Sequence record: MK327931.1
Length of the DNA stretch: 64,000 nucleotides
Reading direction: 5' to 3' (one strand)
Origin: Escherichia phage vB_EcoM_G17
The notes under the pieces are model-generated. The model saw only the letters and a program-made list of their open reading frames with translations. It was not told the DNA's origin and ran no database searches. The position numbers and the translations under genes are program-made. Within the stretch, counting starts at the first letter, position 1, and every line of letters begins with the position of its first letter. Of this stretch, positions 1,039 to 62,060 are shown piece by piece.

Positions 1039-1655
1039 TGGATATTCCTTAATGGTTAATCATCCATCTCTTCGAGATGTCTGTTCGCTTCTAATACTAC
1101 GTATTCTACGCGAATGATTAATAACTGTCAAGGACTTTTAATATTGACGGGATTTGAGGAAGGGATTTTTCTTCCCCCCACAAGGAGGGAAATTTGACGC
1201 TGATGGTATCAGAGCTATTGCATTGAAGATTACTCATAACGAGTGCGAAAGCGGGTCATCCTGTTTCTCTCTACTTCAGTTTCATATGACGGTCTACACT
1301 TTTAAACATAGTGTATCTTCATTAAGTATCTATGCAATCAAATACTTAATGTGAGTACTCAAATTTTGGACGCAACTTTCCTGTACAAAATTCGATAACT
1401 CTCCCTTAGATAATTCGTAAGGTGTTATCCTTATATGTCTATCAAGGAACCACCAGCTATCCTAACGTGGTTCTTTATACAGCCGCATTGCCGTGAGGGG
1501 TTCAAACTATGCCCACATCTAACGGGTTTCTTTTGCTGTTCGCACTGTCGGACTGCTCAACTGCCCTCTACGTTTTCGAGTGGATCAGGTACATGAATAT
1601 CATGCCAACAGAATTGTACAAGATAATTATATCACAAACTTTTACTTCATCCCAT

Positions 1656-1687
1656 AAAAAAAGGTTGGCATAAGCCAACCTTTTTTC
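1656..1687. terminator. bidirectional rho-independent terminator
   Basis: GGTTGGC-ATAA-GCCAACC hairpin flanked by A7 and T6 runs, immediately 3' of the sigma factor gene. Confidence 0.55.
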
Positions 1688-1688
1688 T

Positions 1689-2654
1689 TTAGAAATCTTC
1701 GTATTCGTACCCTTTTGCAAGTACTAGCTTCTTAAGCTTTTGCATAGCTTCACTGTACTTTCGATGTATTGATGAACGGGATTTAACATATTTTCCATTA
1801 TCATCAACAAAACCATTATCAGCAATCTCACGAAGCGTTTCAGGTTCATATTCACCTAGACCATGAACACGCTGGATAATCTCACGTTCTTTAGTACTCA
1901 ATTCGTTAGTCAGTTCATTGATAGCATAACGTAAAGGTGCACGAATACTATCAACATTGAGGTTAAAATCAGAAGCAGGTGAATGAATAATGTCACCTAG
2001 TGTACCATCGGTAACACCGTCTAATGGTGCATCCAGAGAAGTGTATTCGCTTTGAAATAACAAACAGTTATTAACATGCTGAATCTCAATCCCAGTACCC
2101 TCTGAGATTATTTCAGGAGTTGGGCGAACACCATGTTTACGCATATATTCCTGGCAGAATCTTTTTACTTTGATCTTATGAACACTCATATAACGTGGGA
2201 AGTGTACCATATAGTTAGCGTCAGAACTTTCGTTATAAACTGTCATGTAAATACTAGAAGAAGCATAGGTAATGAACTTCACATTCTTATTAAGATCAAA
2301 GGTTTTTAGTGCTCTCATGAACCCCTCAACACCATATGAAATCTTATCTTCAAATGGGATATAACAAGTACATTTACTTGCTACATCAATAATAAGTCCA
2401 TAATTGTAACGAACTAACAGTTCAGTGTTTTTCTTTACATTGATACCAGCTTGAATATCACGAATTAGATCTTCATTGGAAACATTTGGTGGTCGCTTAA
2501 GTGTAATATTATATTTGAAACTGCTTTGTACTTTACCTTCATTTTCATCTTTATCTTCAACGAAATCTAAGGCTTCTAGTGTGTTGACTTCTTCATTAGC
2601 AAAACATTCATCCAGAACTTCTTCGGCAATTGTATTTAAATCAAGCTTTTTCAC
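1689..2654 (-). CDS. sigma-70 family RNA polymerase sigma factor
   Basis: Region 2-like EDKISYGVEGFMRALKTFDLNKNVKFITYASSSIY and region 4-like EREIIQRVHGLGEYEPETLREIADNGF helix-turn-helix. Confidence 0.8.
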   Translation of the reverse strand: MKKLDLNTIAEEVLDECFANEEVNTLEALDFVEDKDENEGKVQSSFKYNITLKRPPNVSNEDLIRDIQAGINVKKNTELLVRYNYGLIIDVASKCTCYIPFEDKISYGVEGFMRALKTFDLNKNVKFITYASSSIYMTVYNESSDANYMVHFPRYMSVHKIKVKRFCQEYMRKHGVRPTPEIISEGTGIEIQHVNNCLLFQSEYTSLDAPLDGVTDGTLGDIIHSPASDFNLNVDSIRAPLRYAINELTNELSTKEREIIQRVHGLGEYEPETLREIADNGFVDDNGKYVKSRSSIHRKYSEAMQKLKKLVLAKGYEYEDF

Positions 2655-2675
2655 TTACATCTCCTAATGACGAAA

Positions 2676-3173
2676 TCAAAATCGATATACATTAATATTA
2701 TCATCTGTGAAGCAATCATGGTTATGCACATCCATGAAAGTACTAAACACTTTATCATATAAAGTTGTATGTTCTTCATGAATAGCAGCATCTAGCATGT
2801 ATTCTCCACCACTACCCATAAAGAAAGTGTAGTCTTCATGTAGATATTCAAGTTTTTTAATAAACTTTCCTTTAGTTAAAATCATATGAATAACATAATC
2901 TTTAGAAAGAAGCACACAATGGCAACTTAACTTTCTGTCAGGTATAACTGGTACTTTATTAATTAACCAATCCAGTACTTTATCAATTTCACTTACTGAC
3001 CCACTAGCACTGAATAAACGGTCATGTACATATAAAGTTTTTTGATTAACAACTCCATATTGATATTTTGGTCTTAGTGGGAAAAAACCAAATAAGTTTC
3101 GTGGTATAGTTGACGTAACTCTAGAATCGGTAATCAATAAATTTAATCGTTTATCAATATAAACAGTTGTCAT
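2676..3173 (-). CDS. hypothetical protein
   Basis: 165-aa ORF, minus-strand tiling. Confidence 0.5.
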   Translation of the reverse strand: MTTVYIDKRLNLLITDSRVTSTIPRNLFGFFPLRPKYQYGVVNQKTLYVHDRLFSASGSVSEIDKVLDWLINKVPVIPDRKLSCHCVLLSKDYVIHMILTKGKFIKKLEYLHEDYTFFMGSGGEYMLDAAIHEEHTTLYDKVFSTFMDVHNHDCFTDDNINVYRF

Positions 3174-3174
3174 A

Positions 3175-3594
3175 TTAAACCTTATCTAAGAATTTATCGT
3201 ATATATAAAATTCTTTATCGGTGAATACATTAATTCTAGTATCGAATCTTTGCATCGTGTTCATATACAATGAACTTTTTAAATAAAAATACAAAGCAAC
3301 AAATTCTGATATATGCATATTCTTTTTATTGTTACATAAATTCTTTAGCATTTTGATGCTATCAAATTCTTCTTTATCAAATCTGTACTGGTAAAAATTG
3401 TATCTATTGGAACGGCACTCATAGATACGAAGTGCCATTATATCAATACATTCTTTAGATTTACAGTACTTATTCAATACGTCATAATCACCCGTACATA
3501 ATGCTACAAAGATTTTATGTGCAAGCGTAGCTTTGCCCTCAATCGTATAATAGCCAAAGAATTTAATGATTAAGTACTGAATGAATGTAATCAT
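3175..3594 (-). CDS. hypothetical protein
   Basis: 139-aa ORF. Confidence 0.5.
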   Translation of the reverse strand: MITFIQYLIIKFFGYYTIEGKATLAHKIFVALCTGDYDVLNKYCKSKECIDIMALRIYECRSNRYNFYQYRFDKEEFDSIKMLKNLCNNKKNMHISEFVALYFYLKSSLYMNTMQRFDTRINVFTDKEFYIYDKFLDKV

Positions 3595-3599
3595 TTGAT

Positions 3600-3860
3600 T
3601 TAGAATTTCTCCGAAATTACTAGAGTGTCATCATAATCTTCTGCAATCTCATGAAGAACTTTTAAGTTACTTTCACCAGAAACGCTTTGTACTTCGTTCA
3701 AAAGATAGTTTAGATCAACTTTAGTTACTTTTTCTGAATCAAATACACAGAAAGTCAATTCAGCGTTTGGACAGATCTTCTTCAGATTATCAGCAACAAC
3801 TTGTTTGAAGTTGAAAGATGGGGAAGCAACCAGGTTAACTGCAACGAGAATAGATTTCAT
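3600..3860 (-). CDS. hypothetical protein
   Basis: 86-aa ORF. Confidence 0.45.
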   Translation of the reverse strand: MKSILVAVNLVASPSFNFKQVVADNLKKICPNAELTFCVFDSEKVTKVDLNYLLNEVQSVSGESNLKVLHEIAEDYDDTLVISEKF

Positions 3861-3934
3861 AATGTTTTCCTTTTTAGCTGATAATTAAATTAGGAGCACA
3901 TTGTACTCCATATTATTTGTTATGTAAAATACTT

Positions 3935-4186
3935 TTAGATACCAAGTGCAGTAGATAACTCTTTACGTTTGTTATATGAATCAGATTCAATCTTACTTTT
4001 CTTGTTGAAAAGGGATTCAATATCCTTATAGATTGCTTCGATAGATTTAGTTACTACCCATTCTGATTCTTGAAGCATACCTTGGAGTCGTGCGTACTCA
4101 ACTTTAATAGTACTGCGAAGTTCTTCACAAACTTCTTCATTCTTAATTAGTGCAGCACTAAGTTCTTTGACCTTATCGATGTTCAT
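3935..4186 (-). CDS. hypothetical protein
   Basis: 83-aa ORF. Confidence 0.45.
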   Translation of the reverse strand: MNIDKVKELSAALIKNEEVCEELRSTIKVEYARLQGMLQESEWVVTKSIEAIYKDIESLFNKKSKIESDSYNKRKELSTALGI

Positions 4187-4245
4187 AAGTTCCTTACTCT
4201 AATTTGTTTTTAACAAAATAATTATATATAACATACTAAATTATG

Positions 4246-4671
4246 TCAAGTATTTTTAGTACCTTCTTCTGCCATTTTTGTGATATACCAATTAAGTACT
4301 GATTTGTGTACCATAAAAAATGTGAATGCAAATATAGCAATAGCTGCTGATGTAACACTATTAGATAATGACCCAAGTTGGATGTTAGTACCTAAAATAA
4401 CAATAAATGGATACAACACAATTAATCTACTGTAAGGTTCGTCTCCAGTATCACGGAGAAATACAAGCCTTTCATGATCAGTATCCATTGTGACAATTGA
4501 ACAGAACATAAGTGCAGACATAAGAGCAATACCAATTTGTGCTACATTAGAAATTGTAAACCACAAAGGATTTAAACCATATGAAATATTATTTTCTGTA
4601 CAGTAGTAACCAAACGAATTGAATGCACAAACTAAAAATACAAAAATACAAATCTTATTATAACCTCTCAT
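4246..4671 (-). CDS. hypothetical integral membrane protein
   Basis: 141-aa ORF with several hydrophobic segments. Confidence 0.5.
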   Translation of the reverse strand: MRGYNKICIFVFLVCAFNSFGYYCTENNISYGLNPLWFTISNVAQIGIALMSALMFCSIVTMDTDHERLVFLRDTGDEPYSRLIVLYPFIVILGTNIQLGSLSNSVTSAAIAIFAFTFFMVHKSVLNWYITKMAEEGTKNT

Positions 4672-10737: not shown

Positions 10738-11184
10738 TTAGTTATATGCTGTGAATAGGTCAATGTTTTTATCATCTACACTGATTAATTTACCAGTTGA
10801 ACTAACAAACACAATATTACCACCAGGGGTGATTTGAACACGCTGGTTTACTGAATATTGATCACTAAGGTTATAATTAGCCCATTCAACTACATAACGC
10901 TGTTCAACACCGTTAGTATCATATAGATAAACGTGTGTAACGTCACGCATTTTTAAACGGTCTAACAGTGTAGAGTTGTCCATGAAATCCGATGGTGTAT
11001 TGCTGCGTAATGCAATACCGAACTCACCGATAACAGTACTAATTGTCAGACCGTTTGAAAAACGGCTACAAAGAGTCTTCTCATCAGCAATATGCATCCA
11101 TAAAACATTCTTTACATCAATATCAACAAATTCACAGTTTTCAAAAACCAAACCTACTTTGGAAACTTTACCATTAAATTGCAT
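10738..11184 (-). CDS. hypothetical protein
   Basis: 148-aa ORF. Confidence 0.5.
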   Translation of the reverse strand: MQFNGKVSKVGLVFENCEFVDIDVKNVLWMHIADEKTLCSRFSNGLTISTVIGEFGIALRSNTPSDFMDNSTLLDRLKMRDVTHVYLYDTNGVEQRYVVEWANYNLSDQYSVNQRVQITPGGNIVFVSSTGKLISVDDKNIDLFTAYN

Positions 11185-11994: not shown

Positions 11995-12423
11995 TCACTT
12001 CCTATCCTTACTCATATTACTACGGATCACCCCACTAAGAAAACATATTTTCCTTAATGTATCATAACTGATATTTGTAAGATCATGTACAAAATTCAAC
12101 TGCAAGTACATTTCTTCAGTTAATTGATTAAATGTATCATCAACATGAATGTTAGTATGTTCCGTTATATCTATTTCTATATTATTTTCCCAAATATCAA
12201 TGTTAACAGCATAGTCTGATGTATGTCTGGATTGAACTGAAATAAAAATATTATTACTGTTGTATAATGTCTCGGTGTATCCATTCAAAAATGATCCAAC
12301 GACAACATCAAAAATGCCATCTCTAATTGGATTTTTTGTTTCAAACGTATCACTACAAACTTGACGGTATACAATGTCAACATACTTATCAATTAAAGTA
12401 AACAAATAACTCATTGCATTCAC
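11995..12423 (-). CDS. EE-x-FFQ C-terminal-motif family paralog
   Basis: C-terminal TEEMYLQLNFVHDLTNISYDTL. Confidence 0.55.
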   Translation of the reverse strand: MNAMSYLFTLIDKYVDIVYRQVCSDTFETKNPIRDGIFDVVVGSFLNGYTETLYNSNNIFISVQSRHTSDYAVNIDIWENNIEIDITEHTNIHVDDTFNQLTEEMYLQLNFVHDLTNISYDTLRKICFLSGVIRSNMSKDRK

Positions 12424-13923: not shown

Positions 13924-14013
<90 letters not shown>

Positions 14014-14025
14014 AGAAGTAAGATA

Positions 14026-14126
<101 letters not shown>

Positions 14127-14178
14127 GCCAAGAGTCGGCATAGGTGCAGCACTACAAAGTTCTTCAAGCTGCTTGGTA

Positions 14179-14210
<32 letters not shown>

Positions 14211-14211
14211 T

Positions 14212-14268
<57 letters not shown>

Positions 14269-14270
14269 TA

Positions 14271-14398
<128 letters not shown>

Positions 14399-14417
14399 GC
14401 ATACTCGAAGTACCTCT

Positions 14418-14455
<38 letters not shown>

Positions 14456-14456
14456 A

Positions 14457-14821
<365 letters not shown>

Positions 14822-14830
14822 TAATACCCG

Positions 14831-15232
14831 CTAGTAGTTTAAGTCTGCGGCGTTGAATACACCAAGTGAAGTCTTACCACGTAGTTTAGGTGAAAGGACA
14901 TACTTTGTCAATTTCTTTTTACCGTACCAGCGATTGAATTCGTCTTCAGTGACATATGGGTTCTGGAAATCGTATTCGCGTTTCTTATGCAGTTCTTTAG
15001 CACGTTCTGCAATCTTGGTTCGTTGGTCTTCTGGAATGTCGAATGTATTGTTACGTTCACACCATTCGTGCTCTAATGCACCCTGAAGAAACTGTTCGGT
15101 TTCTTTGACTAGAGTGATTTTAGTCAAGCCTTTTTCGATGTTCATATAATCATCGACGTATCCATTCCAAATAACAATCTCTGGATTGCCGTCAATTTCT
15201 TGAAGCATTTTGATCAAGTCATTCTTTTTCAT
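14831..15232 (-). CDS. hypothetical protein
   Basis: 133-aa ORF. Confidence 0.5.
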   Translation of the reverse strand: MKKNDLIKMLQEIDGNPEIVIWNGYVDDYMNIEKGLTKITLVKETEQFLQGALEHEWCERNNTFDIPEDQRTKIAERAKELHKKREYDFQNPYVTEDEFNRWYGKKKLTKYVLSPKLRGKTSLGVFNAADLNY

Positions 15233-15240
15233 TTAAATTC

Positions 15241-15498
<258 letters not shown>

Positions 15499-15519
15499 TT
15501 ATACCTCTCATTGTTTATG

Positions 15520-15591
<72 letters not shown>

Positions 15592-15595
15592 TAAT

Positions 15596-16203
<608 letters not shown>

Positions 16204-16254
16204 ATAAACCTCACTATACGTAACTTACACCATATACGTCTGATTGTGGAATTC

Positions 16255-16279
16255 ATTATATCAGTACTGAACTATTTAG

Positions 16280-16283
<4 letters not shown>
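16255..16283 (-). promoter_or_regulatory. sigma-70-type promoter copy B (TTGACT-N17-TATAAT)
   Basis: Consensus -10, near-consensus -35, conserved 17-nt spacer; upstream of gene 15820..16203. Confidence 0.6.
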
Positions 16284-16693
<410 letters not shown>

Positions 16694-16702
16694 CTTTTTT
16701 TT

Positions 16703-16864
<162 letters not shown>

Positions 16865-16868
<4 letters not shown>

Positions 16869-17029
16869 AATCGTACCAGTAGTTCAATTAAGTACATTTC
16901 ATATGCTGGATCGTTGATAAGTTTATCATACAGATGTGGCTCTGAAATGAATTCCCAATGATACTTTAGCCATCTACCGATACCCGAATATCTAAAATTA
17001 ATGTCATTCATCCATTCTTCATGTGTCAT
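16865..17029 (-). CDS. MTHEEWM-family small protein (54 aa)
   Basis: Manual translation MTHEEWMNDINFRYSGIGRWLKYHWEFISEPHLYDKLINDPAYEMYLIELLVRL; tandem with next copy. Confidence 0.5.
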
Positions 17030-17190
17030 AATCGTACCATTATTTCAATAAAGAACCACGGATACACTTCATGATTCATAAGTTTATCGTATTCTGCTGG
17101 GTCTGATATGATTTCCCAATGATACTTTAGCCAACTACCGATACCCGAATATCTAAAATTAATGTCATTCATCCATTCTTCATGCGTCAT
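17026..17190 (-). CDS. MTHEEWM-family small protein (54 aa)
   Basis: Manual translation MTHEEWMNDINFRYSGIGSWLKYHWEIISDPAEYDKLMNHEVYPWFFIEIMVRL; about 75 percent identical to previous copy. Confidence 0.5.
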   Translation of the reverse strand: MTHEEWMNDINFRYSGIGSWLKYHWEIISDPAEYDKLMNHEVYPWFFIEIMVRL

Positions 17191-17213
17191 GGTTTTTAAC
17201 CTTTAATTAAAAT

Positions 17214-17290
17214 TGGCCGAGGTAGAGGGACTTGAACCCCCAACCTAGAGATTAGAATTCTCTTGCACTATCCAATTGTGCTATACCCCG
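17214..17290 (-). tRNA. tRNA-Arg (anticodon UCU)
   Basis: Acceptor CGGGGTA/TACCTCG plus G-CCA, D-arm GCACAATTGGATAGTGC, anticodon stem AGAGA/TCTCT with loop AUUCUAA, T-arm GGGGG-TTCAAGT-CCCTC. Confidence 0.7.
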
Positions 17291-17294
17291 TATT

Positions 17295-17410
<116 letters not shown>

Positions 17411-17443
17411 ATGTTATGTCCCATTATATAATGAATTAATGAT

Positions 17444-17770
17444 TTATGCAAGTGCTTTAGATACACCGACACCAATAATTCCAGTGATATCGATATGGAT
17501 ATTGGCAAGTTGATTACTATCATATGGGTTTGTTTCTGTAATAACCAATGTTGTATCATTGACTAAAACCACAGTACCTTTTACACGATAACCATGTAGT
17601 AGTACTTGAACCTCATCTTCAGGTTTTAATGATTGAATAACTTCAAATAAAGTTGTTTCCATTTTTTGTATTCCTTGTTTAGTTTTGATTATTTGACTTT
17701 CTAAATGCCAGTTCGCATATAAACCAGGGTTTTCTGGTATCCAAAACATATGACCTGAAAAGATTTTCAT
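17444..17770 (-). CDS. hypothetical protein (start uncertain)
   Basis: 108-aa ORF; 5' end overlaps 17679..17879 so an internal Met is the likely start. Confidence 0.4.
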   Translation of the reverse strand: MKIFSGHMFWIPENPGLYANWHLESQIIKTKQGIQKMETTLFEVIQSLKPEDEVQVLLHGYRVKGTVVLVNDTTLVITETNPYDSNQLANIHIDITGIIGVGVSKALA

Positions 17771-17862
17771 CTCTTAATATATCATAATGTACCTGACGAA
17801 TGCCATTCCCAAAGCAGTCATGTTCTTTATGCTGTTTGGACATCCATTCTTCGTGTGTCATT

Positions 17863-17879
<17 letters not shown>
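17679..17879 (-). CDS. MTHEEWM-family small protein
   Basis: Contains MTHEEWMSKQ...WFICELAFRK aligning with other family members. Confidence 0.5.
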
Positions 17880-18198
<319 letters not shown>

Positions 18199-22008: not shown

Positions 22009-22123
22009 TTTAATACCCTTTTATTTCTTTTTTATGAAAAACCCTCATCATTGAGGAATGGTTTGCATTTTAATATCTGCCGATAACAAACATTATATCA
22101 CAATATCTGTTCTTGTCCAATTT

Positions 22124-29363: not shown

Positions 29364-29818
29364 TTCACCACCATTGGATTTTGCGACTGTATATTAAAAA
29401 GGGATAATACAAAAGTACTCAATTTTTCGAAACAATCTACTAATACATTTAACTCATCATAACTAACACCAATTTCACGAATAAGCGATTGTTGAAAGAA
29501 TCCTTCTTCGGTTAACGTTAAACTACTAACCTCAGTTATGTTATAATAACTGTGGGATGTTGTGGTTGATATTAGTTGTATTGCAATCGTATCTGATGTT
29601 GTGTTGTACAGATATAAATATTTTGTTTTTCTTTCCAATGGATCTATACATGAAAGATCGATCATGTCATAGGTTTTTCCAATAAAAATATTACAATCAT
29701 CTGACAATTCACAACAAATGCGTATATGTTCTTTCGGGTCATGAACACGTTGTGTGTCAAATTCACATGACATTGCAATTTCAAAATGATTTTTTATTTC
29801 GTCAACATTCATCTGCAC
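29357..29818 (-). CDS. EE-x-FFQ C-terminal-motif family paralog
   Basis: LTEEGFFQQSLIREIGVSYDEL. Confidence 0.55.
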   Translation of the reverse strand: MQMNVDEIKNHFEIAMSCEFDTQRVHDPKEHIRICCELSDDCNIFIGKTYDMIDLSCIDPLERKTKYLYLYNTTSDTIAIQLISTTTSHSYYNITEVSSLTLTEEGFFQQSLIREIGVSYDELNVLVDCFEKLSTFVLSLFNIQSQNPMVVKC

Positions 29819-32223: not shown

Positions 32224-32805
32224 TTAGAGAGATTCTTCGTATTCAGCAACAATCTCAACCATTTCATTAATGAACTTGATGTGAGAATGTGTCACTGTAC
32301 GGAAGTCGTAAACAAGTGACTGTTGGAAAAATACATCTTCATCAAGAGAACCATCAAAGTTCAAATCAATGTTTTCATCGTCATTGCTTGGTGCAACTTT
32401 AATATTCAGAAGATTTTCATCAATGAACTTGATGTGAGAATGTGTCACTGTACGGAAGTCGTAAACAAGTGACTGTTGGAAAAATACATCTTCATCAAGA
32501 GAACCATCAAAGTTCAAATCAATGTTTTCATCGTCATTGCTTGGTGCAACTTTAATATTCAGAAGATTTTCATCAACTGCAAGTTTTACAACACAACCCA
32601 GTGCAATGGCAAGAACATATGCTGGTTTCTTAGCTTTTTCATTACGGAATGGTGCACGTAGAGCACAAAAAGTACTGCTAATCTCATCATTTGGTTCTTT
32701 GTATTTAACATTGACCATTAGTTCTTCGATTTTGACGCTCTCAATAACACGACCAGTTTCTGGAGCGAAGAAAGAATGTTCACGGATAGTTTGTTCGATA
32801 TTCAT
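32224..32805 (-). CDS. EE-x-FFQ motif family paralog carrying an internal 51-aa tandem duplication
   Basis: Motif LDEDVFFQQSLVYDFRTVTHSHIKFI occurs twice because of a perfect 153-bp direct repeat. Confidence 0.55.
   Translation of the reverse strand: MNIEQTIREHSFFAPETGRVIESVKIEELMVNVKYKEPNDEISSTFCALRAPFRNEKAKKPAYVLAIALGCVVKLAVDENLLNIKVAPSNDDENIDLNFDGSLDEDVFFQQSLVYDFRTVTHSHIKFIDENLLNIKVAPSNDDENIDLNFDGSLDEDVFFQQSLVYDFRTVTHSHIKFINEMVEIVAEYEESL
32271..32576. repeat. perfect 2 x 153-bp tandem direct repeat, in frame within a CDS
   Basis: Identical sequence read at about 32271..32423 and 32424..32576 (repeat phase arbitrary). Confidence 0.85.
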
Positions 32806-40067: not shown

Positions 40068-41207
40068 TCAAGTATTTTTTAACTCTTTGTTACCATATGC
40101 CAGATTACGAATAATTTCTACAGTACTCTCATCCACAGCTTTACCTGTCTGTGATTGTAAACGATTGATAATCAAAGGAATAGTAATAGTTTGAAGATCT
40201 ACCATACGATTCATATCAACTTGATATTGCTTACTTGTTGCAATAATGCTCGTTTCAGTCATGGAGGTGGTGATTCCCATTTTCATAATACGTTCTAATG
40301 TTAATTCATATTCAAACGCATCATCCACACAACGTAGTGCGTATTCACAACCCAACTTACCATATTCAAGTTCATTTTTGATTTCATTAACTTCGTTTCT
40401 AAGTTCTGAAAACATCGTACTAAGACCACTAAACTTATTAGTGTCATACTTAACTGCTTCATTTAGTGCTTTCATCACTTTTGGCAAATCTGATGGTTGC
40501 ACTTTGATATCAGTTTTACCAAACAATTTCTGTGTAAAGGTCGGCTTCAATGGGAACAACGTCTCCAACGCAACAGTAAGGTTATTCATAAGCATTCTAA
40601 TATAATCACTATGCTGTTGTAATGCTGAGTTAAGATCCAATTGACGTTCTGAAATTTGTTGAATCTTAGTTCCAATTTCTTGTGCACAAACTGGTAAGTT
40701 TACAAACCAGTCTAGTACTTTTACTGAATTCTTTTCAATAGTACTAGGGAATTCAACCCATCTTTCAATGTCATCAATTCTGCTATCGTCTGGGTTGATA
40801 GGTTTTTTCTTAAGAACAATAGGTGCAGGTACATCTGGTGATGTTTGTACCAAGTCTAAACGTGGTTTGGCACGACCTTCTTTCCATTCACGATATTCAC
40901 GCTCTAATGGCGGTACTGGCATGTTAGGATCAATTCTAATATTACTAAAATGAATTTTATCCTTCATTAAATCAAGAACTTTCAGACGTTTATTATCAAA
41001 ATAGATTTCATCTAATGACAGAGTTTTTACATCAAATAACGGATTACCCAGCGAGTCATAGGTGCGACGTACAATTACATTGTAAATGTATTTTTTGTTT
41101 GATGAACGGTCATATTGTTTCAATAAAGAGTTCAGTACATAATTATAGTTAAATTCTTGAATCTCAACTTCTTTGCCATTTTCAATGAAAAAATATTTAC
41201 CTTTCAT
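40068..41207 (-). CDS. hypothetical protein
   Basis: 379-aa ORF. Confidence 0.55.
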   Translation of the reverse strand: MKGKYFFIENGKEVEIQEFNYNYVLNSLLKQYDRSSNKKYIYNVIVRRTYDSLGNPLFDVKTLSLDEIYFDNKRLKVLDLMKDKIHFSNIRIDPNMPVPPLEREYREWKEGRAKPRLDLVQTSPDVPAPIVLKKKPINPDDSRIDDIERWVEFPSTIEKNSVKVLDWFVNLPVCAQEIGTKIQQISERQLDLNSALQQHSDYIRMLMNNLTVALETLFPLKPTFTQKLFGKTDIKVQPSDLPKVMKALNEAVKYDTNKFSGLSTMFSELRNEVNEIKNELEYGKLGCEYALRCVDDAFEYELTLERIMKMGITTSMTETSIIATSKQYQVDMNRMVDLQTITIPLIINRLQSQTGKAVDESTVEIIRNLAYGNKELKNT

Positions 41208-49342: not shown

Positions 49343-49402
49343 TATCTATAGATTATTTATATAAAGGACAAGGAAGACCCATAAGGTCTTCCATTAAATA
49401 TA

Positions 49403-52830: not shown

Positions 52831-52892
52831 TTGAATTCCTTATCATGTCTCTTTGTCATAAAACATTGTATCACCAATGTTTTGTTTGTCTC

Positions 52893-60657: not shown

Positions 60658-62060
<1,403 letters not shown>

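What the first reader, a model, noticed from the sequence alone, without database searches (positions are those of the whole stretch)
1689..2654. Phage-encoded full-length sigma-70 family sigma factor
The 321-aa protein has clear region 2 and region 4 signatures, unlike the short T4 gp55-type late sigma. It implies a transcription programme that replaces host sigma specificity; the repeated TTGACT/TATAAT promoters elsewhere are host-type, so this factor probably serves a different (middle or late) promoter class that could be found by motif discovery.
Basis: partly seen in the sequence, partly recalled or inferred. Interest (0 to 1): 0.45.

Follow-up and report, generated by a model that had tools for sequence, protein, structure and literature searches.

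The report
Jumbo-phage RpoD-like sigma factor gene
This is a real sigma factor gene of a 350-kb E. coli jumbo phage that is already annotated and discussed in the literature; sequence comparison suggests it is made early and redirects the host RNA polymerase to a phage-specific "middle" promoter class, but nobody has tested this.

Summary
The ORF at 1689-2654 (minus strand, 321 aa, AGGAG-N6-GTG start) is a genuine sigma-70-family protein with sigma2, sigma3, a 3.2 linker and sigma4. The window is 100% identical here to Escherichia phage Sharanji, where the gene is annotated rpoD (gp182). Published work calls it a hallmark of RNAP-less "group 2" jumbo phages, so the finding is already known.

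It is not a housekeeping-type sigma. It lacks regions 1.1 and 1.2. The melting tryptophans W433/W434 are never aromatic in any ortholog. The -35-reading residues are replaced. A conserved 9-10-residue insertion sits inside the sigma4 helix-turn-helix.

De novo motif discovery on the whole genome gives three promoter classes:
- A: host-type TTGACA-TATAAT (early; also drives this gene).
- B: TG(G/A)GACAA-N13-TGnTATAAT (replication genes, tRNAs, the gp55-like late sigma gene).
- C: T4-late-like ATAAATA (structural genes).

The class B box differs between phage genera and tracks the sigma4 helix residues, not the host. Best model: a cascade from host sigma70 to gp182 to the gp55-like sigma. This is inferred, not shown.

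Side finding: a four-copy, strongly covarying ~450-nt structured RNA, absent from Rfam, each copy behind a class B promoter. One copy abuts this gene.

The parts
1689..2654 (-). RpoD-like sigma factor gene (Sharanji gp182, 321 aa). Acidic, disordered N-terminus 1-55; sigma2 about residues 60-150; sigma3 about 154-200; 3.2 linker about 205-235; sigma4 about 232-313, with a 9-10-residue insertion (about residues 280-292) in the HTH.
2661..2665 (-). Shine-Dalgarno AGGAG, 6 nt before the GTG start
   Evidence: read directly from the sequence
4221..4249 (-). Class A (host sigma70-type) promoter, TTGACA-N17-TATAAT (12/12), with an A-rich upstream element. Heads the unit gp186-gp185-gp184-gp183-sigma.
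3900..3928 (-). Second, weaker host-type promoter, TTTACA-N17-TACAAT (10/12), between gp186 and gp185
2676..4186 (-). Four small genes of unknown function packed directly upstream of the sigma gene on the same strand: gp183 2676-3173, gp184 3175-3594, gp185 3600-3860, gp186 3935-4186
1656..1680 (-). Intrinsic terminator after the sigma gene: GGTTGGC-TTAT-GCCAACC followed by T7
   Evidence: read directly; not called by the simple scan, probably because the flanking A-run extends the stem
1626..1654 (-). Class-B-like promoter TGGGATGA-N13-TGTGATATAAT pointing into the structured RNA gene. The ortholog in vB_Ec-M-J has a perfect TGGGACAA box.
1165..1620 (-). Copy 1 of a four-copy, ~450-nt structured non-coding RNA family transcribed from class B promoters (side finding)
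17395..17423 (-). Class B promoter TGGGACAT-N13-TGATATAAT upstream of tRNA-Ser(tga)/tRNA-Arg; a candidate target of the sigma
22092..22120 (-). Class B promoter TTGGACAAG...TGATATAAT upstream of gp236; a candidate target
52865..52892 (-). Class-B-like site GAGACAAAC...TGATACAAT in the replication-gene region of the window

Best explanation
gp182 is a sigma-70-family initiation factor with group-3-like architecture (sigma2-sigma3-sigma4, no region 1.1).

Proposed sequence of events:
1. Host sigma70 holoenzyme transcribes it early, from perfect host-type promoters.
2. The protein binds host core RNA polymerase. The phage has no polymerase of its own.
3. It directs the core to the phage's class B 'middle' promoters, TG(G/A)GACAA-N13-TGnTATAAT. 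Its remodelled sigma4 helix-turn-helix reads the non-host -35 box. Its conserved sigma2 pockets read the TATAAT -10.
4. Class B promoters sit in front of replication, recombination and nucleotide-metabolism genes, tRNAs, a four-copy structured RNA, and the gene for the gp55-like late sigma. That sigma in turn serves the T4-late-type ATAAATA promoters of structural genes.

The programme is therefore a three-tier cascade: host sigma70, then gp182, then the gp55-like sigma.

Shown here: sigma identity, residue replacements, the three motif classes and where they lie, and co-variation of the box with sigma4.

Inferred: binding to core, the assignment of class B to gp182, and the timing.
For: 1. 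Sigma identity and domains.

2. The phage clade lacks its own RNAP and depends on the host enzyme (literature).

3. Early expression: TTGACA-N17-TATAAT (12/12) at 4249-4221 and TTTACA-N17-TACAAT at 3928-3900 head the five-gene block that ends with the sigma gene and its terminator.

4. Promoter-reading residues differ from sigma70 in every ortholog. W433/W434 become S/T/A/V. E585, R586, R588 and Q589 are replaced. A conserved GF.D..GK insertion sits in the 4.2 HTH. Pocket and core residues N383, L386, D403, F419 and Y430 are kept.

5. Class B is real:
- GGGACA-N15-18-TATAAT occurs 12 times against 0.7 expected.
- There are 24 sites, all on the gene strand.
- 20 of the 24 fall in the 7.3% of the genome that is non-coding (P=1.6e-19).
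- They lie in front of recA, the polA-like gene, the sbcCD operon, the thyA operon, clpP and tRNAs.

6. The box is clade-specific and mutually exclusive between clades, while the -10 part and the spacing are constant:
- Sharanji, vB_Ec-M-J, 7t3 and EJP2: TG(G/A)GACA.
- RaK2: CTGAACA.
- CBB and XbC2: TG(A/G)AACG.

7. The box type tracks the residues at sigma70 positions 584/588/589:
- R/H/R goes with GGGACA in three lineages whose sigmas are only 36-44% identical. This includes 7t3, whose sigma is overall closer to CBB's.
- R/H/Y goes with the RaK2 box.
- K/S/R goes with the box of CBB and of XbC2, which infect different host genera.

8. Only three recurrent promoter classes exist, for three sigmas. 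Class C equals the T4 late motif, and gp368 is gp55-like (phrog_12791 2.4e-154, phrog_234 8e-18). gp368 sits 58 nt behind a class B site, as its orthologs do.

9. No MotA or gp33 homolog was found, and no supported AsiA homolog.
Against: - No experiment exists for any member of this clade.
- Class B has an extended -10 (TGnTATAAT) and 4/6 matches to TTGACA in Sharanji. Host sigma70 could therefore plausibly use these promoters unaided.
- The -10 part is invariant across clades, although the sigma residues that would read -12 and the TG motif (positions 437, 440, 441, 455, 458) vary between clades. H455/E458 are mostly not conserved. An invariant host sigma70 reading the -10 would explain that more simply.
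- The co-variation rests on about four independent lineages and few sites in some of them (EJP2 has 1-2). An unidentified co-evolving activator would give the same pattern.
- About 85% of the phage genes have no known function, so failing to find MotA/AsiA-like factors is weak evidence.
Confidence: 0.55

Rival explanations
1. Class B promoters are used by host sigma70 holoenzyme through their extended -10. The clade-specific box is bound by an unidentified phage activator, analogous to T4 MotA/AsiA sigma appropriation. gp182 would then have another, unidentified target set or an accessory role.
For: - TGnTATAAT is an optimal sigma70 extended -10 and is invariant across phage clades, like the host sigma.
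- The gp182 residues equivalent to the TG-reading H455/E458 are not conserved.
- T4, a distant relative with the same late system, uses exactly this architecture for middle promoters (established knowledge).
- CBB and XbC2 carry a small HTH regulator just upstream of their sigma gene.
Against: - No MotA or gp33 homolog was found. The only AsiA-like hit (gp456, E=0.008) is unsupported by Pfam or PHROGs.
- The box sits at the canonical -35 position (16-17 bp spacer), not at the MotA-box position, and keeps the A-C of TTGACA.
- The box type tracks the sigma4 helix residues of gp182 orthologs.
- No other recurrent motif is left for gp182 to read.
Confidence: 0.2
2. gp182 is a general substitute for sigma70. 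It keeps phage transcription going from both class A and class B promoters while the host sigma is inactivated or out-competed, without a distinct promoter specificity.
For: - The best profile matches are to RpoD and RpoS.
- Classes A and B share the same -10 and spacing, and the A-C of the -35.
- The A(-11) and T(-7) pocket residues are conserved.
Against: - Four of the five -35-contacting residues of sigma70 are replaced, and the HTH carries an insertion, in all orthologs. Unchanged TTGACA recognition is therefore unlikely.
- The -35 boxes of classes A and B are sharply distinct, and the two classes are placed in different parts of the genome.
Confidence: 0.12
3. gp182 is the late sigma for structural genes.
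For: Full-length phage sigmas serve late genes in some other phages (established knowledge, for example phiEco32 gp36).
Against: - Structural genes carry a T4-late-type (T)ATAAATA motif with no -35 element.
- The phage encodes a gp55-family late sigma.
- TATAAATA is strongly depleted genome-wide, 15 observed against 68 expected, as expected for a functional signal.
Confidence: 0.03
4. gp182 is mainly an inhibitor. It occupies host core RNAP as a decoy or anti-host factor rather than directing productive initiation.
For: - It lacks the melting tryptophans.
- It has an acidic, disordered N-terminus: 14 D/E against 7 K/R in residues 1-55, pLDDT below 50.
Against: - sigma3, the 3.2 finger motif (SLD.P...D..TLGD.I) and a full sigma4 DNA-reading helix are conserved down to 31% identity across the clade. 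A pure decoy would not need them.
- Alternative sigmas generally lack these tryptophans and are still active (established knowledge: Koo et al. 2009, Genes Dev).
Confidence: 0.05

Closest known systems
RpoD-like sigma factors of RaK2-like / 'group 2' jumbo phages (121Q gp167, PBECO4, RaK2_00244, GAP32, CBB_513; PHROG 351)
   Same: It is one of them. It is 99-100% identical to the 121Q/PBECO4/phAPEC6 proteins and 31-60% identical to the RaK2, Munch, CBB and XbC2 proteins. Length, domain order, neighbourhood and the sigma4 insertion are the same. The literature already calls it a hallmark of RNAP-less group 2 jumbo phages.
   Different: Nothing distinguishes it from the family. What is added here is the residue-level description and the link between box type and helix residues.
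E. coli sigma70 (RpoD) and sigmaS (RpoS), group 1/2 sigmas
   Same: - Best sequence and fold matches.
- sigma2, sigma3, the 3.2 linker and sigma4 are all present.
- N383, L386, D403, G408, F419 and Y430 are conserved.
   Different: - About 25% identity.
- No region 1.1, region 1.2 or non-conserved region.
- W433/W434 are lost.
- Q437, T440, H455, E458, E585, R586, R588 and Q589 are replaced.
- There is a 9-10-residue insertion in the 4.2 HTH.
- Scores are far below all equivalog cutoffs.
Bacillus phage SPO1 gp28 (middle sigma) followed by gp33/34 (late): a phage sigma cascade
   Same: Same proposed logic. Host primary sigma transcribes early genes, including a phage sigma, which then redirects host core to middle promoters. 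Those in turn lead to the late factor (established knowledge; SPO1 switch summarised in PMC13401047).
   Different: Homology to gp28 was not tested here. The host is Gram-negative, the late factor is T4 gp55-like rather than gp33/34, and nothing has been shown experimentally.
T4 transcription programme (AsiA/MotA middle, gp55/gp33/gp45 late)
   Same: - The late promoter motif (TATAAATA-like) and a gp55-family sigma are shared.
- Middle promoters keep a sigma70-like -10, often with TGn, plus a non-host upstream box.
   Different: - No MotA, gp33 or supported AsiA homolog.
- The box lies at the true -35 position.
- The phage carries a complete sigma, which T4 lacks.
Coliphage phiEco32 gp36
   Same: A coliphage-encoded sigma-70-family protein that redirects E. 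coli core RNAP to phage middle/late promoters (established knowledge: Savalia 2008, Pavlova 2012; the latter is cited).
   Different: Relatedness was not tested here. phiEco32 is a small podophage with a single phage sigma and an additional RNAP inhibitor.

Membership tests
Sigma-70 family (TIGR02937 superfamily; Pfam Sigma70_r2/r3/r4) | sigma2 domain (regions 2.1-2.4: core binding, -10 recognition) | tested here: met
   - Pfam r2 E=7e-5 (23.0 bits, 1 bit under the gathering cutoff).
- TIGR02937 is above its cutoff.
- Aligns to sigma70 residues 373-460 with N383, D403, G408, F419, T429, Y430 and A431 conserved.
- The AF2 model of this domain has pLDDT about 85.
Sigma-70 family (TIGR02937 superfamily; Pfam Sigma70_r2/r3/r4) | sigma4 domain with the region 4.2 helix-turn-helix | tested here: met
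   - Pfam r4 E=3e-5 (23.8 vs 24.1); only the first half of the model matches, because of the insertion.
- The alignment recovers the recognition helix SRSSIHRKYSEAMQKLKK after a 9-10-residue insertion.
- AF2 pLDDT about 85.
Sigma-70 family (TIGR02937 superfamily; Pfam Sigma70_r2/r3/r4) | Binds core RNA polymerase and confers promoter-specific initiation | not testable with these tools
   Requires biochemistry. The only support is indirect: conserved 2.2 and 3.2 motifs, and fold matches to holoenzyme-bound sigmas.
Group 1 (primary, RpoD) sigma factors | Regions 1.1 and 1.2 present | tested here: not met
   No PF03979 or PF00140 match. The N-terminal 55 residues are acidic and predicted disordered.
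Group 1 (primary, RpoD) sigma factors | Conserved promoter-melting aromatics (Y425, Y430, W433, W434) and -10/-35 reading residues | tested here: not met
   Only Y430 is kept. W433/W434 become S/S, Y425 becomes V, and Q437, T440, E585, R586, R588 and Q589 are replaced, in all orthologs.
Group 1 (primary, RpoD) sigma factors | Reaches the curated RpoD equivalog score | tested here: not met
   TIGR02393 scores 88 bits against a cutoff of 354; NF004208 scores 64 against 555.
Group 2 (RpoS-like) sigma factors | Near-identity of the DNA-recognition regions 2.4 and 4.2 with the primary sigma | tested here: not met
   TIGR02394 scores 70.5 bits against 378.7. Residue replacements are as above.
Group 3 sigma factors (SigB/F/G, FliA/WhiG) | sigma2-sigma3-sigma4 architecture without region 1.1, and divergent promoter specificity | tested here: inconclusive
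   The architecture fits. But the group 3 profiles score lower than the RpoD profiles and stay below their cutoffs: SigBFG 56 vs 234, FliA 55 vs 190. It resembles group 3 in design without being a member of a named group 3 subfamily.
T4 gp55-type minimal late sigma (PHROG 234 / 12791) | Short sigma2-only protein matching the gp55 family profile | tested here: not met
   gp182 matches only phrog_351 and has sigma3 and sigma4. The gp55-type protein of this phage is a different gene, gp368.
RaK2-like jumbo phage RpoD-like sigma (PHROG 351 subgroup) | Full-length similarity to the clade's proteins, with the shared sigma4 insertion and loss of W433/W434 | tested here: met
   - PHROG 351 at 2.6e-60.
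- 72 phage records cover at least 80% of the protein.
- The insertion and the non-aromatic 433/434 are present in all orthologs aligned.

The most novel reading that the evidence does not exclude
gp182 orthologs are dedicated middle-gene sigmas. Their insertion-bearing sigma4 domain reads an extended, clade-specific -35 box, giving a simple residue-to-base code: R/H/R with GGGACA, R/H/Y with TGAACA, K/S/R with G(A/G)AACG. This would form a three-tier sigma cascade (host sigma70, then the RpoD-like sigma, then the gp55-like sigma) in phages of Gram-negative bacteria. The same sigma would also drive a previously undescribed four-copy ~450-nt structured RNA family.
Probability: 0.45. Interest if true: 0.6.

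Novelty: already known. Interest (0 to 1): 0.35.

Why it matters
The gene itself is ordinary for this phage clade and already annotated. What could matter is that these 350-kb phages carry no RNA polymerase, so their whole temporal programme must run through sigma replacement on the host enzyme, and nobody has mapped which sigma reads what.

The analysis here turns that into a concrete, cheap experiment. There are three promoter classes with defined consensus sequences. There is also a predicted sigma4-to-box code that differs between phage genera, so it can be tested by helix swaps.

If confirmed, it would supply orthogonal sigma/promoter pairs that work with E. coli core RNAP, which are useful for synthetic biology. 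It would also give a second, Gram-negative example of an SPO1-style phage sigma cascade.

The class B promoters led to a covarying multi-copy RNA that is absent from Rfam. That RNA may be the more novel object in this stretch.

Tried and rejected
1. The CBB paper's -35 motif, TGAAACG, searched in the window: 0 sites paired with TATAAT, and 15 occurrences alone against 8.2 expected. Explanation: Sharanji uses a different box.

2. gp346, the gene behind the class B site at 174 kb, as the gp55-like sigma: PHROG of unknown function, no Pfam match. Rejected. The real gp55-like gene is gp368.

3. T4 MotA, gp33 and DsbA as probes: no significant hits. T4 AsiA: a weak hit to gp456 (phmmer E=0.008, tblastn E=0.055), with no support from Pfam or PHROGs. 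Treated as not found.

4. Neighbouring genes gp183-gp189 and gp180-gp181: no informative family. gp183 has only a weak HslV-like PHROG match, 1.3e-6.

5. Rfam on the conserved non-coding stretch, copy 1 and the CBB copy: nothing meaningful.

6. Single-sequence folding of RNA copy 1: z = -1.6, not informative on its own. Covariation was needed.

7. Relation of that RNA to the RNA-seq-verified ncRNA001/002 of PA5oct: none by nhmmer.

8. A fourth promoter class in the 124 gaps lacking A, B or C: none; only terminator T-runs and ribosome-binding sites.

9. A base-by-base mapping of helix residues onto box positions, using known sigma70 contacts: only partly consistent. RaK2 keeps H588 but changes box position 3, so no code is claimed beyond the correlation of residue sets with box types.

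10. Literature searches for experiments on this sigma: none found.

11. Not run, as unnecessary for the verdict: the exhaustive 1.84-billion-protein profile search and a second structure prediction.
Full report
OBSERVATION.

- The start is credible. AGGAG lies 6 nt upstream, and an in-frame ATG-TAA immediately before it rules out a longer N-terminus.
- Orthologs begin with the same MKKLDLN.

IDENTITY OF THE GENOME.

The first 8 kb of the window is 100% identical to Escherichia phage Sharanji (OR545507.1; 350,079 bp; Asteriusvirus). It is 98-99% identical to 121Q, PBECO4, phAPEC6 and others.
- The gene is Sharanji_gp182, annotated 'rpoD, RNA polymerase sigma factor'.
- Over its full length the window matches the record in two blocks, 100% and 99.98% identical. 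The window carries about 160 extra bases at ~32.4 kb: record 112039-112200 is present twice.

WHAT IS ALREADY KNOWN.

- The Sharanji paper names this protein and suggests it associates with host RNAP (PMC11895373).
- Iyer et al. 2021 define 'group 2' jumbo phages by three things: absence of an RNAP, a minimal sigma, and an RpoD-like sigma (PMC7824862).
- A 2026 review repeats that such sigmas 'likely' direct host RNAP to phage promoters.
- The paper on the relative CBB predicted three promoter types. One is RpoD-like early promoters, in the region that contains the sigma gene. One is a divergent type with -35 TGAAACG in front of DNA-synthesis genes and of a gp55-like gene. One is a T4-late-like ATAAATA (PMC5259590).
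- I found no experiment on any member of this sigma family.

IS IT A SIGMA FACTOR? Yes.

- Pfam finds Sigma70_r3 above threshold, and r2 and r4 within one bit of threshold.
- NCBIfam's sigma-70 superfamily model passes. The best-scoring models are RpoD_Cterm, cyanobacterial RpoD, SigB and RpoS, all far below their equivalog cutoffs. The group 3 and ECF models score lower.
- PHROG 351 matches at 2.6e-60.
- phmmer against the PDB matches 58 sigma chains, led by RpoD at 5e-17.
- An AlphaFold model built on 24 homologs is confident for sigma2 (residues ~60-150), sigma3 (~154-200) and sigma4 (~232-313). It is disordered in the acidic N-terminus and the 3.2 linker.
- Foldseek returns only sigma factors, with sigmaS and sigmaA first.

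WHAT KIND OF SIGMA?

I aligned it with E. coli RpoD and RpoS, taken from the MG1655 genome, and with orthologs down to 31% identity.

Kept:
- the core-binding 2.2 pattern (D403, G408, G411);
- N383, L386, F419 and Y430, residues that line the A(-11) and T(-7) pockets in sigma70 (established knowledge: Feklistov and Darst 2011);
- the 3.2 finger motif.

Lost or changed in every ortholog:
- regions 1.1 and 1.2;
- W433/W434, which become S, T, A or V;
- Y425, T440 and E458;
- four of the five -35-contacting residues (E585, R586, R588, Q589).

Added: a conserved 9-10-residue insertion (consensus GF.D..GK) sits between the two helices of the region 4.2 helix-turn-helix. It is modelled with pLDDT about 85 as a small hairpin.

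Loss of the melting tryptophans is typical of alternative sigmas. It goes with a need for near-consensus promoters (established knowledge: Koo et al. 2009).

So this is a clade-specific branch of the sigma-70 family. Its sequence is nearest to groups 1/2. Its design is group-3-like. It is not a housekeeping-type factor.

Outside the jumbo-phage clade the nearest proteins are cellular sigmas at about 25-35% identity. Within phages, 72 records carry a full-length ortholog.

PROMOTER CLASSES.

I assembled the Sharanji genome, called genes by a greedy ORF method, and looked for strand-specific k-mers in the 240 upstream gaps. Three classes emerge.

Class A: AAAAGTAC-TTGCA(a/t) or TTGACA, then N16-17, then TATAAT.
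- 55 sites, 53 of them on the main coding strand.
- 30 of them lie in the first 50 kb, in front of tiny genes.
- This is the host sigma70 consensus with an A-rich upstream element.

Class B: (a/g)TG(G/A)GACAA, then N13, then TG(A/C)TATAAT.
- GGGACA-N15-18-TATAAT occurs 12 times against 0.7 expected.
- There are 24 sites, all on the gene strand. Twenty of them lie in the 7.3% of the genome that is non-coding (P=1.6e-19).
- They are typically 12-90 nt before a start codon.
- Downstream genes include recA, the polA-like 5'-3' exonuclease, the sbcCD operon, the thyA operon, clpP, the helicase neighbourhood and a PD-(D/E)XK nuclease.
- In the window, they precede the tRNA-Ser/Arg pair (17395-17423) and gp236 (~22092).

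Class C: (T)ATAAATA.
- It lies 25-70 nt upstream of the genes for the major capsid protein, portal, sheath, prohead protease, baseplate proteins and the RCC1-like paralog array.
- The exact T4 motif TATAAATA is strongly depleted genome-wide, 15 observed against 68 expected.

No fourth class is left in the 124 gaps that lack A, B and C.

THE SECOND SIGMA.

A T4 gp55 probe pointed weakly to gp368. PHROGs confirm it: 'sigma factor for late transcription' at 2.4e-154, and the T4 gp55 family at 8e-18.
- Its gene (genome 196052-196891, outside the window) lies 58 nt behind a class B promoter.
- The orthologs in RaK2, CBB and XbC2 are arranged the same way.

HOW THE SIGMA GENE IS EXPRESSED.

It is the last gene of a tight block, gp186-gp185-gp184-gp183-gp182.
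- The block is preceded by TTGACA-N17-TATAAT (12/12) at 4249-4221 and by TTTACA-N17-TACAAT at 3928-3900.
- It is followed by a hairpin plus T7 terminator at 1680-1656.
- It therefore looks like an early, host-transcribed gene. This agrees with the CBB authors' placement of their ortholog.

WHO READS CLASS B?

I fetched polB plus or minus 20 kb from RaK2, CBB, XbC2 and 7t3, and the sigma locus plus or minus 20 kb from EJP2.

All have promoters of class B architecture at orthologous positions, but the box differs:
- Sharanji, vB_Ec-M-J, 7t3 and EJP2: TG(G/A)GACA.
- RaK2: CTGAACA.
- CBB and XbC2: TG(A/G)AACG.
Box types are mutually exclusive between clades, and no site lies on the opposite strand. 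TTGACA promoters occur in the early regions sampled; EJP2 has 10.

Primary sigma region 4.2 and the TTGACA consensus are conserved among these proteobacterial hosts (established knowledge, not tested here). A box that changes between phage genera should therefore be read by a phage protein.

The residues of the gp182 orthologs at sigma70 positions 584/585/586/588/589 are:

| Phage | Residues | Box |
|---|---|---|
| Sharanji, vB_Ec-M-J | RSSHR | TG(G/A)GACA |
| 7t3, Munch | RTSHR | TG(G/A)GACA |
| EJP2 | RCTHR | TG(G/A)GACA |
| RaK2 | RGTHY | CTGAACA |
| CBB, XbC2 | KATSR | TG(A/G)AACG |

The three R..HR lineages share the GGGACA-type box although their sigmas are only 36-44% identical. 7t3 is overall closer to CBB (45%) than to Sharanji (38%), yet it has Sharanji's helix type and Sharanji's box. 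XbC2 has CBB's helix and CBB's box although its host is Xanthomonas rather than Pectobacterium.

The differences fall where expected from sigma70 contacts:
- The upstream end of the box changes with position 589.
- The downstream end changes with position 584.
The mapping is not one-to-one, though. RaK2 keeps H588 but changes the third base, so I claim a correlation, not a code.

MECHANISM PROPOSED.

Host sigma70 holoenzyme fires class A promoters and makes gp182. gp182 then takes over host core and fires class B promoters. Those express replication functions, tRNAs, a structured RNA family and the gp55-like sigma. The gp55-like sigma fires class C late promoters.

What is shown: the identity of the protein, the residue changes, the three motif classes and their positions, and the co-variation.

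What is inferred: core binding, the assignment of class B to gp182, and the timing. I put this at about 0.55.

RIVALS.

The main rival is host sigma70 using the extended -10 of class B, with an unknown activator bound to the box, as in T4 AsiA/MotA.

In its favour:
- TGnTATAAT is invariant across clades, while the gp182 residues that would read -12 and the TG motif vary.
- H455/E458 are not conserved.

Against it:
- No MotA or gp33 homolog was found, and the AsiA hit is unsupported.
- The box sits at the canonical -35 position.
- The box tracks the helix residues.
- Nothing else is left for gp182 to read.

A general sigma70 substitute, a late sigma and a pure decoy are less likely, for the reasons given under the rival explanations.

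SIDE FINDING.

The 650-nt 'empty' gap just downstream of the sigma gene is nearly 100% identical between Sharanji and vB_Ec-M-J, although the two sigmas are only 60% identical. It turns out to be one copy of a multi-copy element.
- There are 254 places in 61 phage records, 3-5 per genome.
- Sharanji has exactly four copies, at genome 81.4, 192.2, 271.0 and 327.0 kb. They are 67-72% identical to one another.
- Each copy lies directly behind a class B promoter.
- Several copies end in a hairpin plus T-run.
- No ORF is conserved between copies.
- RNAalifold predicts 82 pairs, 44 of them with compensatory changes.
- The pair count gives 96.3% of cells paired against 78.9% in shuffles. The covariation score is 0.506, against 0.179 in shuffles (0 of 500 reach the observed value) and at most 0.099 in slid registers.
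- Rfam 15 has no match for two copies.
- The ncRNAs reported for PA5oct are unrelated.

This is a genuine structured RNA gene family of unknown function. Ideas not tested: a ribozyme or RNP scaffold; or an origin transcript, like the middle-promoter R-loops of T4 oriF/oriG.

VERDICT.

The finding is correct and its interpretation is reasonable. But the gene is already annotated and discussed in print, so as a discovery it is 'already known'.

Its residual interest lies in three things: the untested mechanism, the specific sigma4-to-box prediction that this analysis makes testable, and the unexpected RNA family next door.

Noticed in passing
window 1165-1620 (minus strand); paralogs at L015:26509-26979, L012:41816-42264, L014:20608-20982: A four-copy, ~450-nt structured non-coding RNA family.
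- It is present 3-5 times in every genome of the RaK2/121Q/CBB clade (254 places in 61 records).
- Each Sharanji copy lies behind a class B promoter, and some copies have an intrinsic terminator.
- 82 predicted pairs in 15 helices, 44 of them covarying; 0 of 500 shuffles reach the observed covariation.
- No Rfam match and no conserved ORF.
- Function unknown.
   Followed up: partly
L012:46052-46891 (Sharanji genome 196052-196891, outside the window): A second phage sigma: gp368 is a T4 gp55-family late sigma (phrog_12791 2.4e-154; phrog_234 8e-18), annotated only as 'hypothetical protein' in the Sharanji record. It lies 58 nt behind a class B promoter and is followed by the sbcD/sbcC-like (gp47/gp46) genes, as in RaK2, CBB and XbC2.
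   Followed up: yes
whole Sharanji genome (L009-L015); in the window for example 29613-29620 (+), 49354-49361 (-), 60907-60914 (+): The T4 late-promoter octamer TATAAATA is about 4.5-fold depleted genome-wide: 15 observed against 68 expected from a first-order Markov model. ATAAATA is concentrated in non-coding DNA (32 of 53 occurrences in 7% of the genome) upstream of structural genes. This suggests selection against spurious late promoters.
   Followed up: partly
window ~32260-32423: The window carries about 160 extra bases relative to the deposited Sharanji record. Record 112039-112200 is present twice (tandem duplication or assembly difference), within gp261/gp262-type small genes. The rest of the window is 99.98-100% identical to the record.
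   Followed up: partly
L010:9560-9632, 10980-11048, 12260-12328 (Sharanji genome ~59.6, 61.0 and 62.3 kb); also L024:39470-39510 and 40200-40240 in EJP2: A repeated composite element, AAAGGGTTGACTTCGGTCAGCCCTTTTTGCTATAAT. It is a GC-rich terminator hairpin whose 5' arm contains TTGACT. That TTGACT sits exactly 17 nt from a TATAAT, so a terminator and a host-type promoter are fused into one 36-nt unit.
   Followed up: no
window 13934-18176: Seven tRNA genes. Two are unusually long: tRNA-Met at 90 nt and a tRNA-Ser with the rare anticodon ACT at 92 nt. At least the tRNA-Ser(tga)/tRNA-Arg pair is preceded by a class B promoter rather than a host-type one.
   Followed up: no
window 2676-3173 (gp183): The gene immediately upstream of, and probably co-transcribed with, the sigma gene has a weak match to an HslV-family peptidase PHROG (1.3e-6). 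It has no Pfam match. The other genes of the block have no recognisable function.
   Followed up: partly
class A promoters genome-wide, for example window 4221-4260, and L009 16-35 kb: The palindrome-like word AGTACT / CAGTACTG recurs in class A promoters, both in the upstream element (AAAAGTACTTGCA) and in the spacer just before the -10 (…CAGTACTGTATAAT). The transcribed start region is also conserved (TTTTACATC). Both may be binding sites for a further regulator. Unexplained.
   Followed up: no
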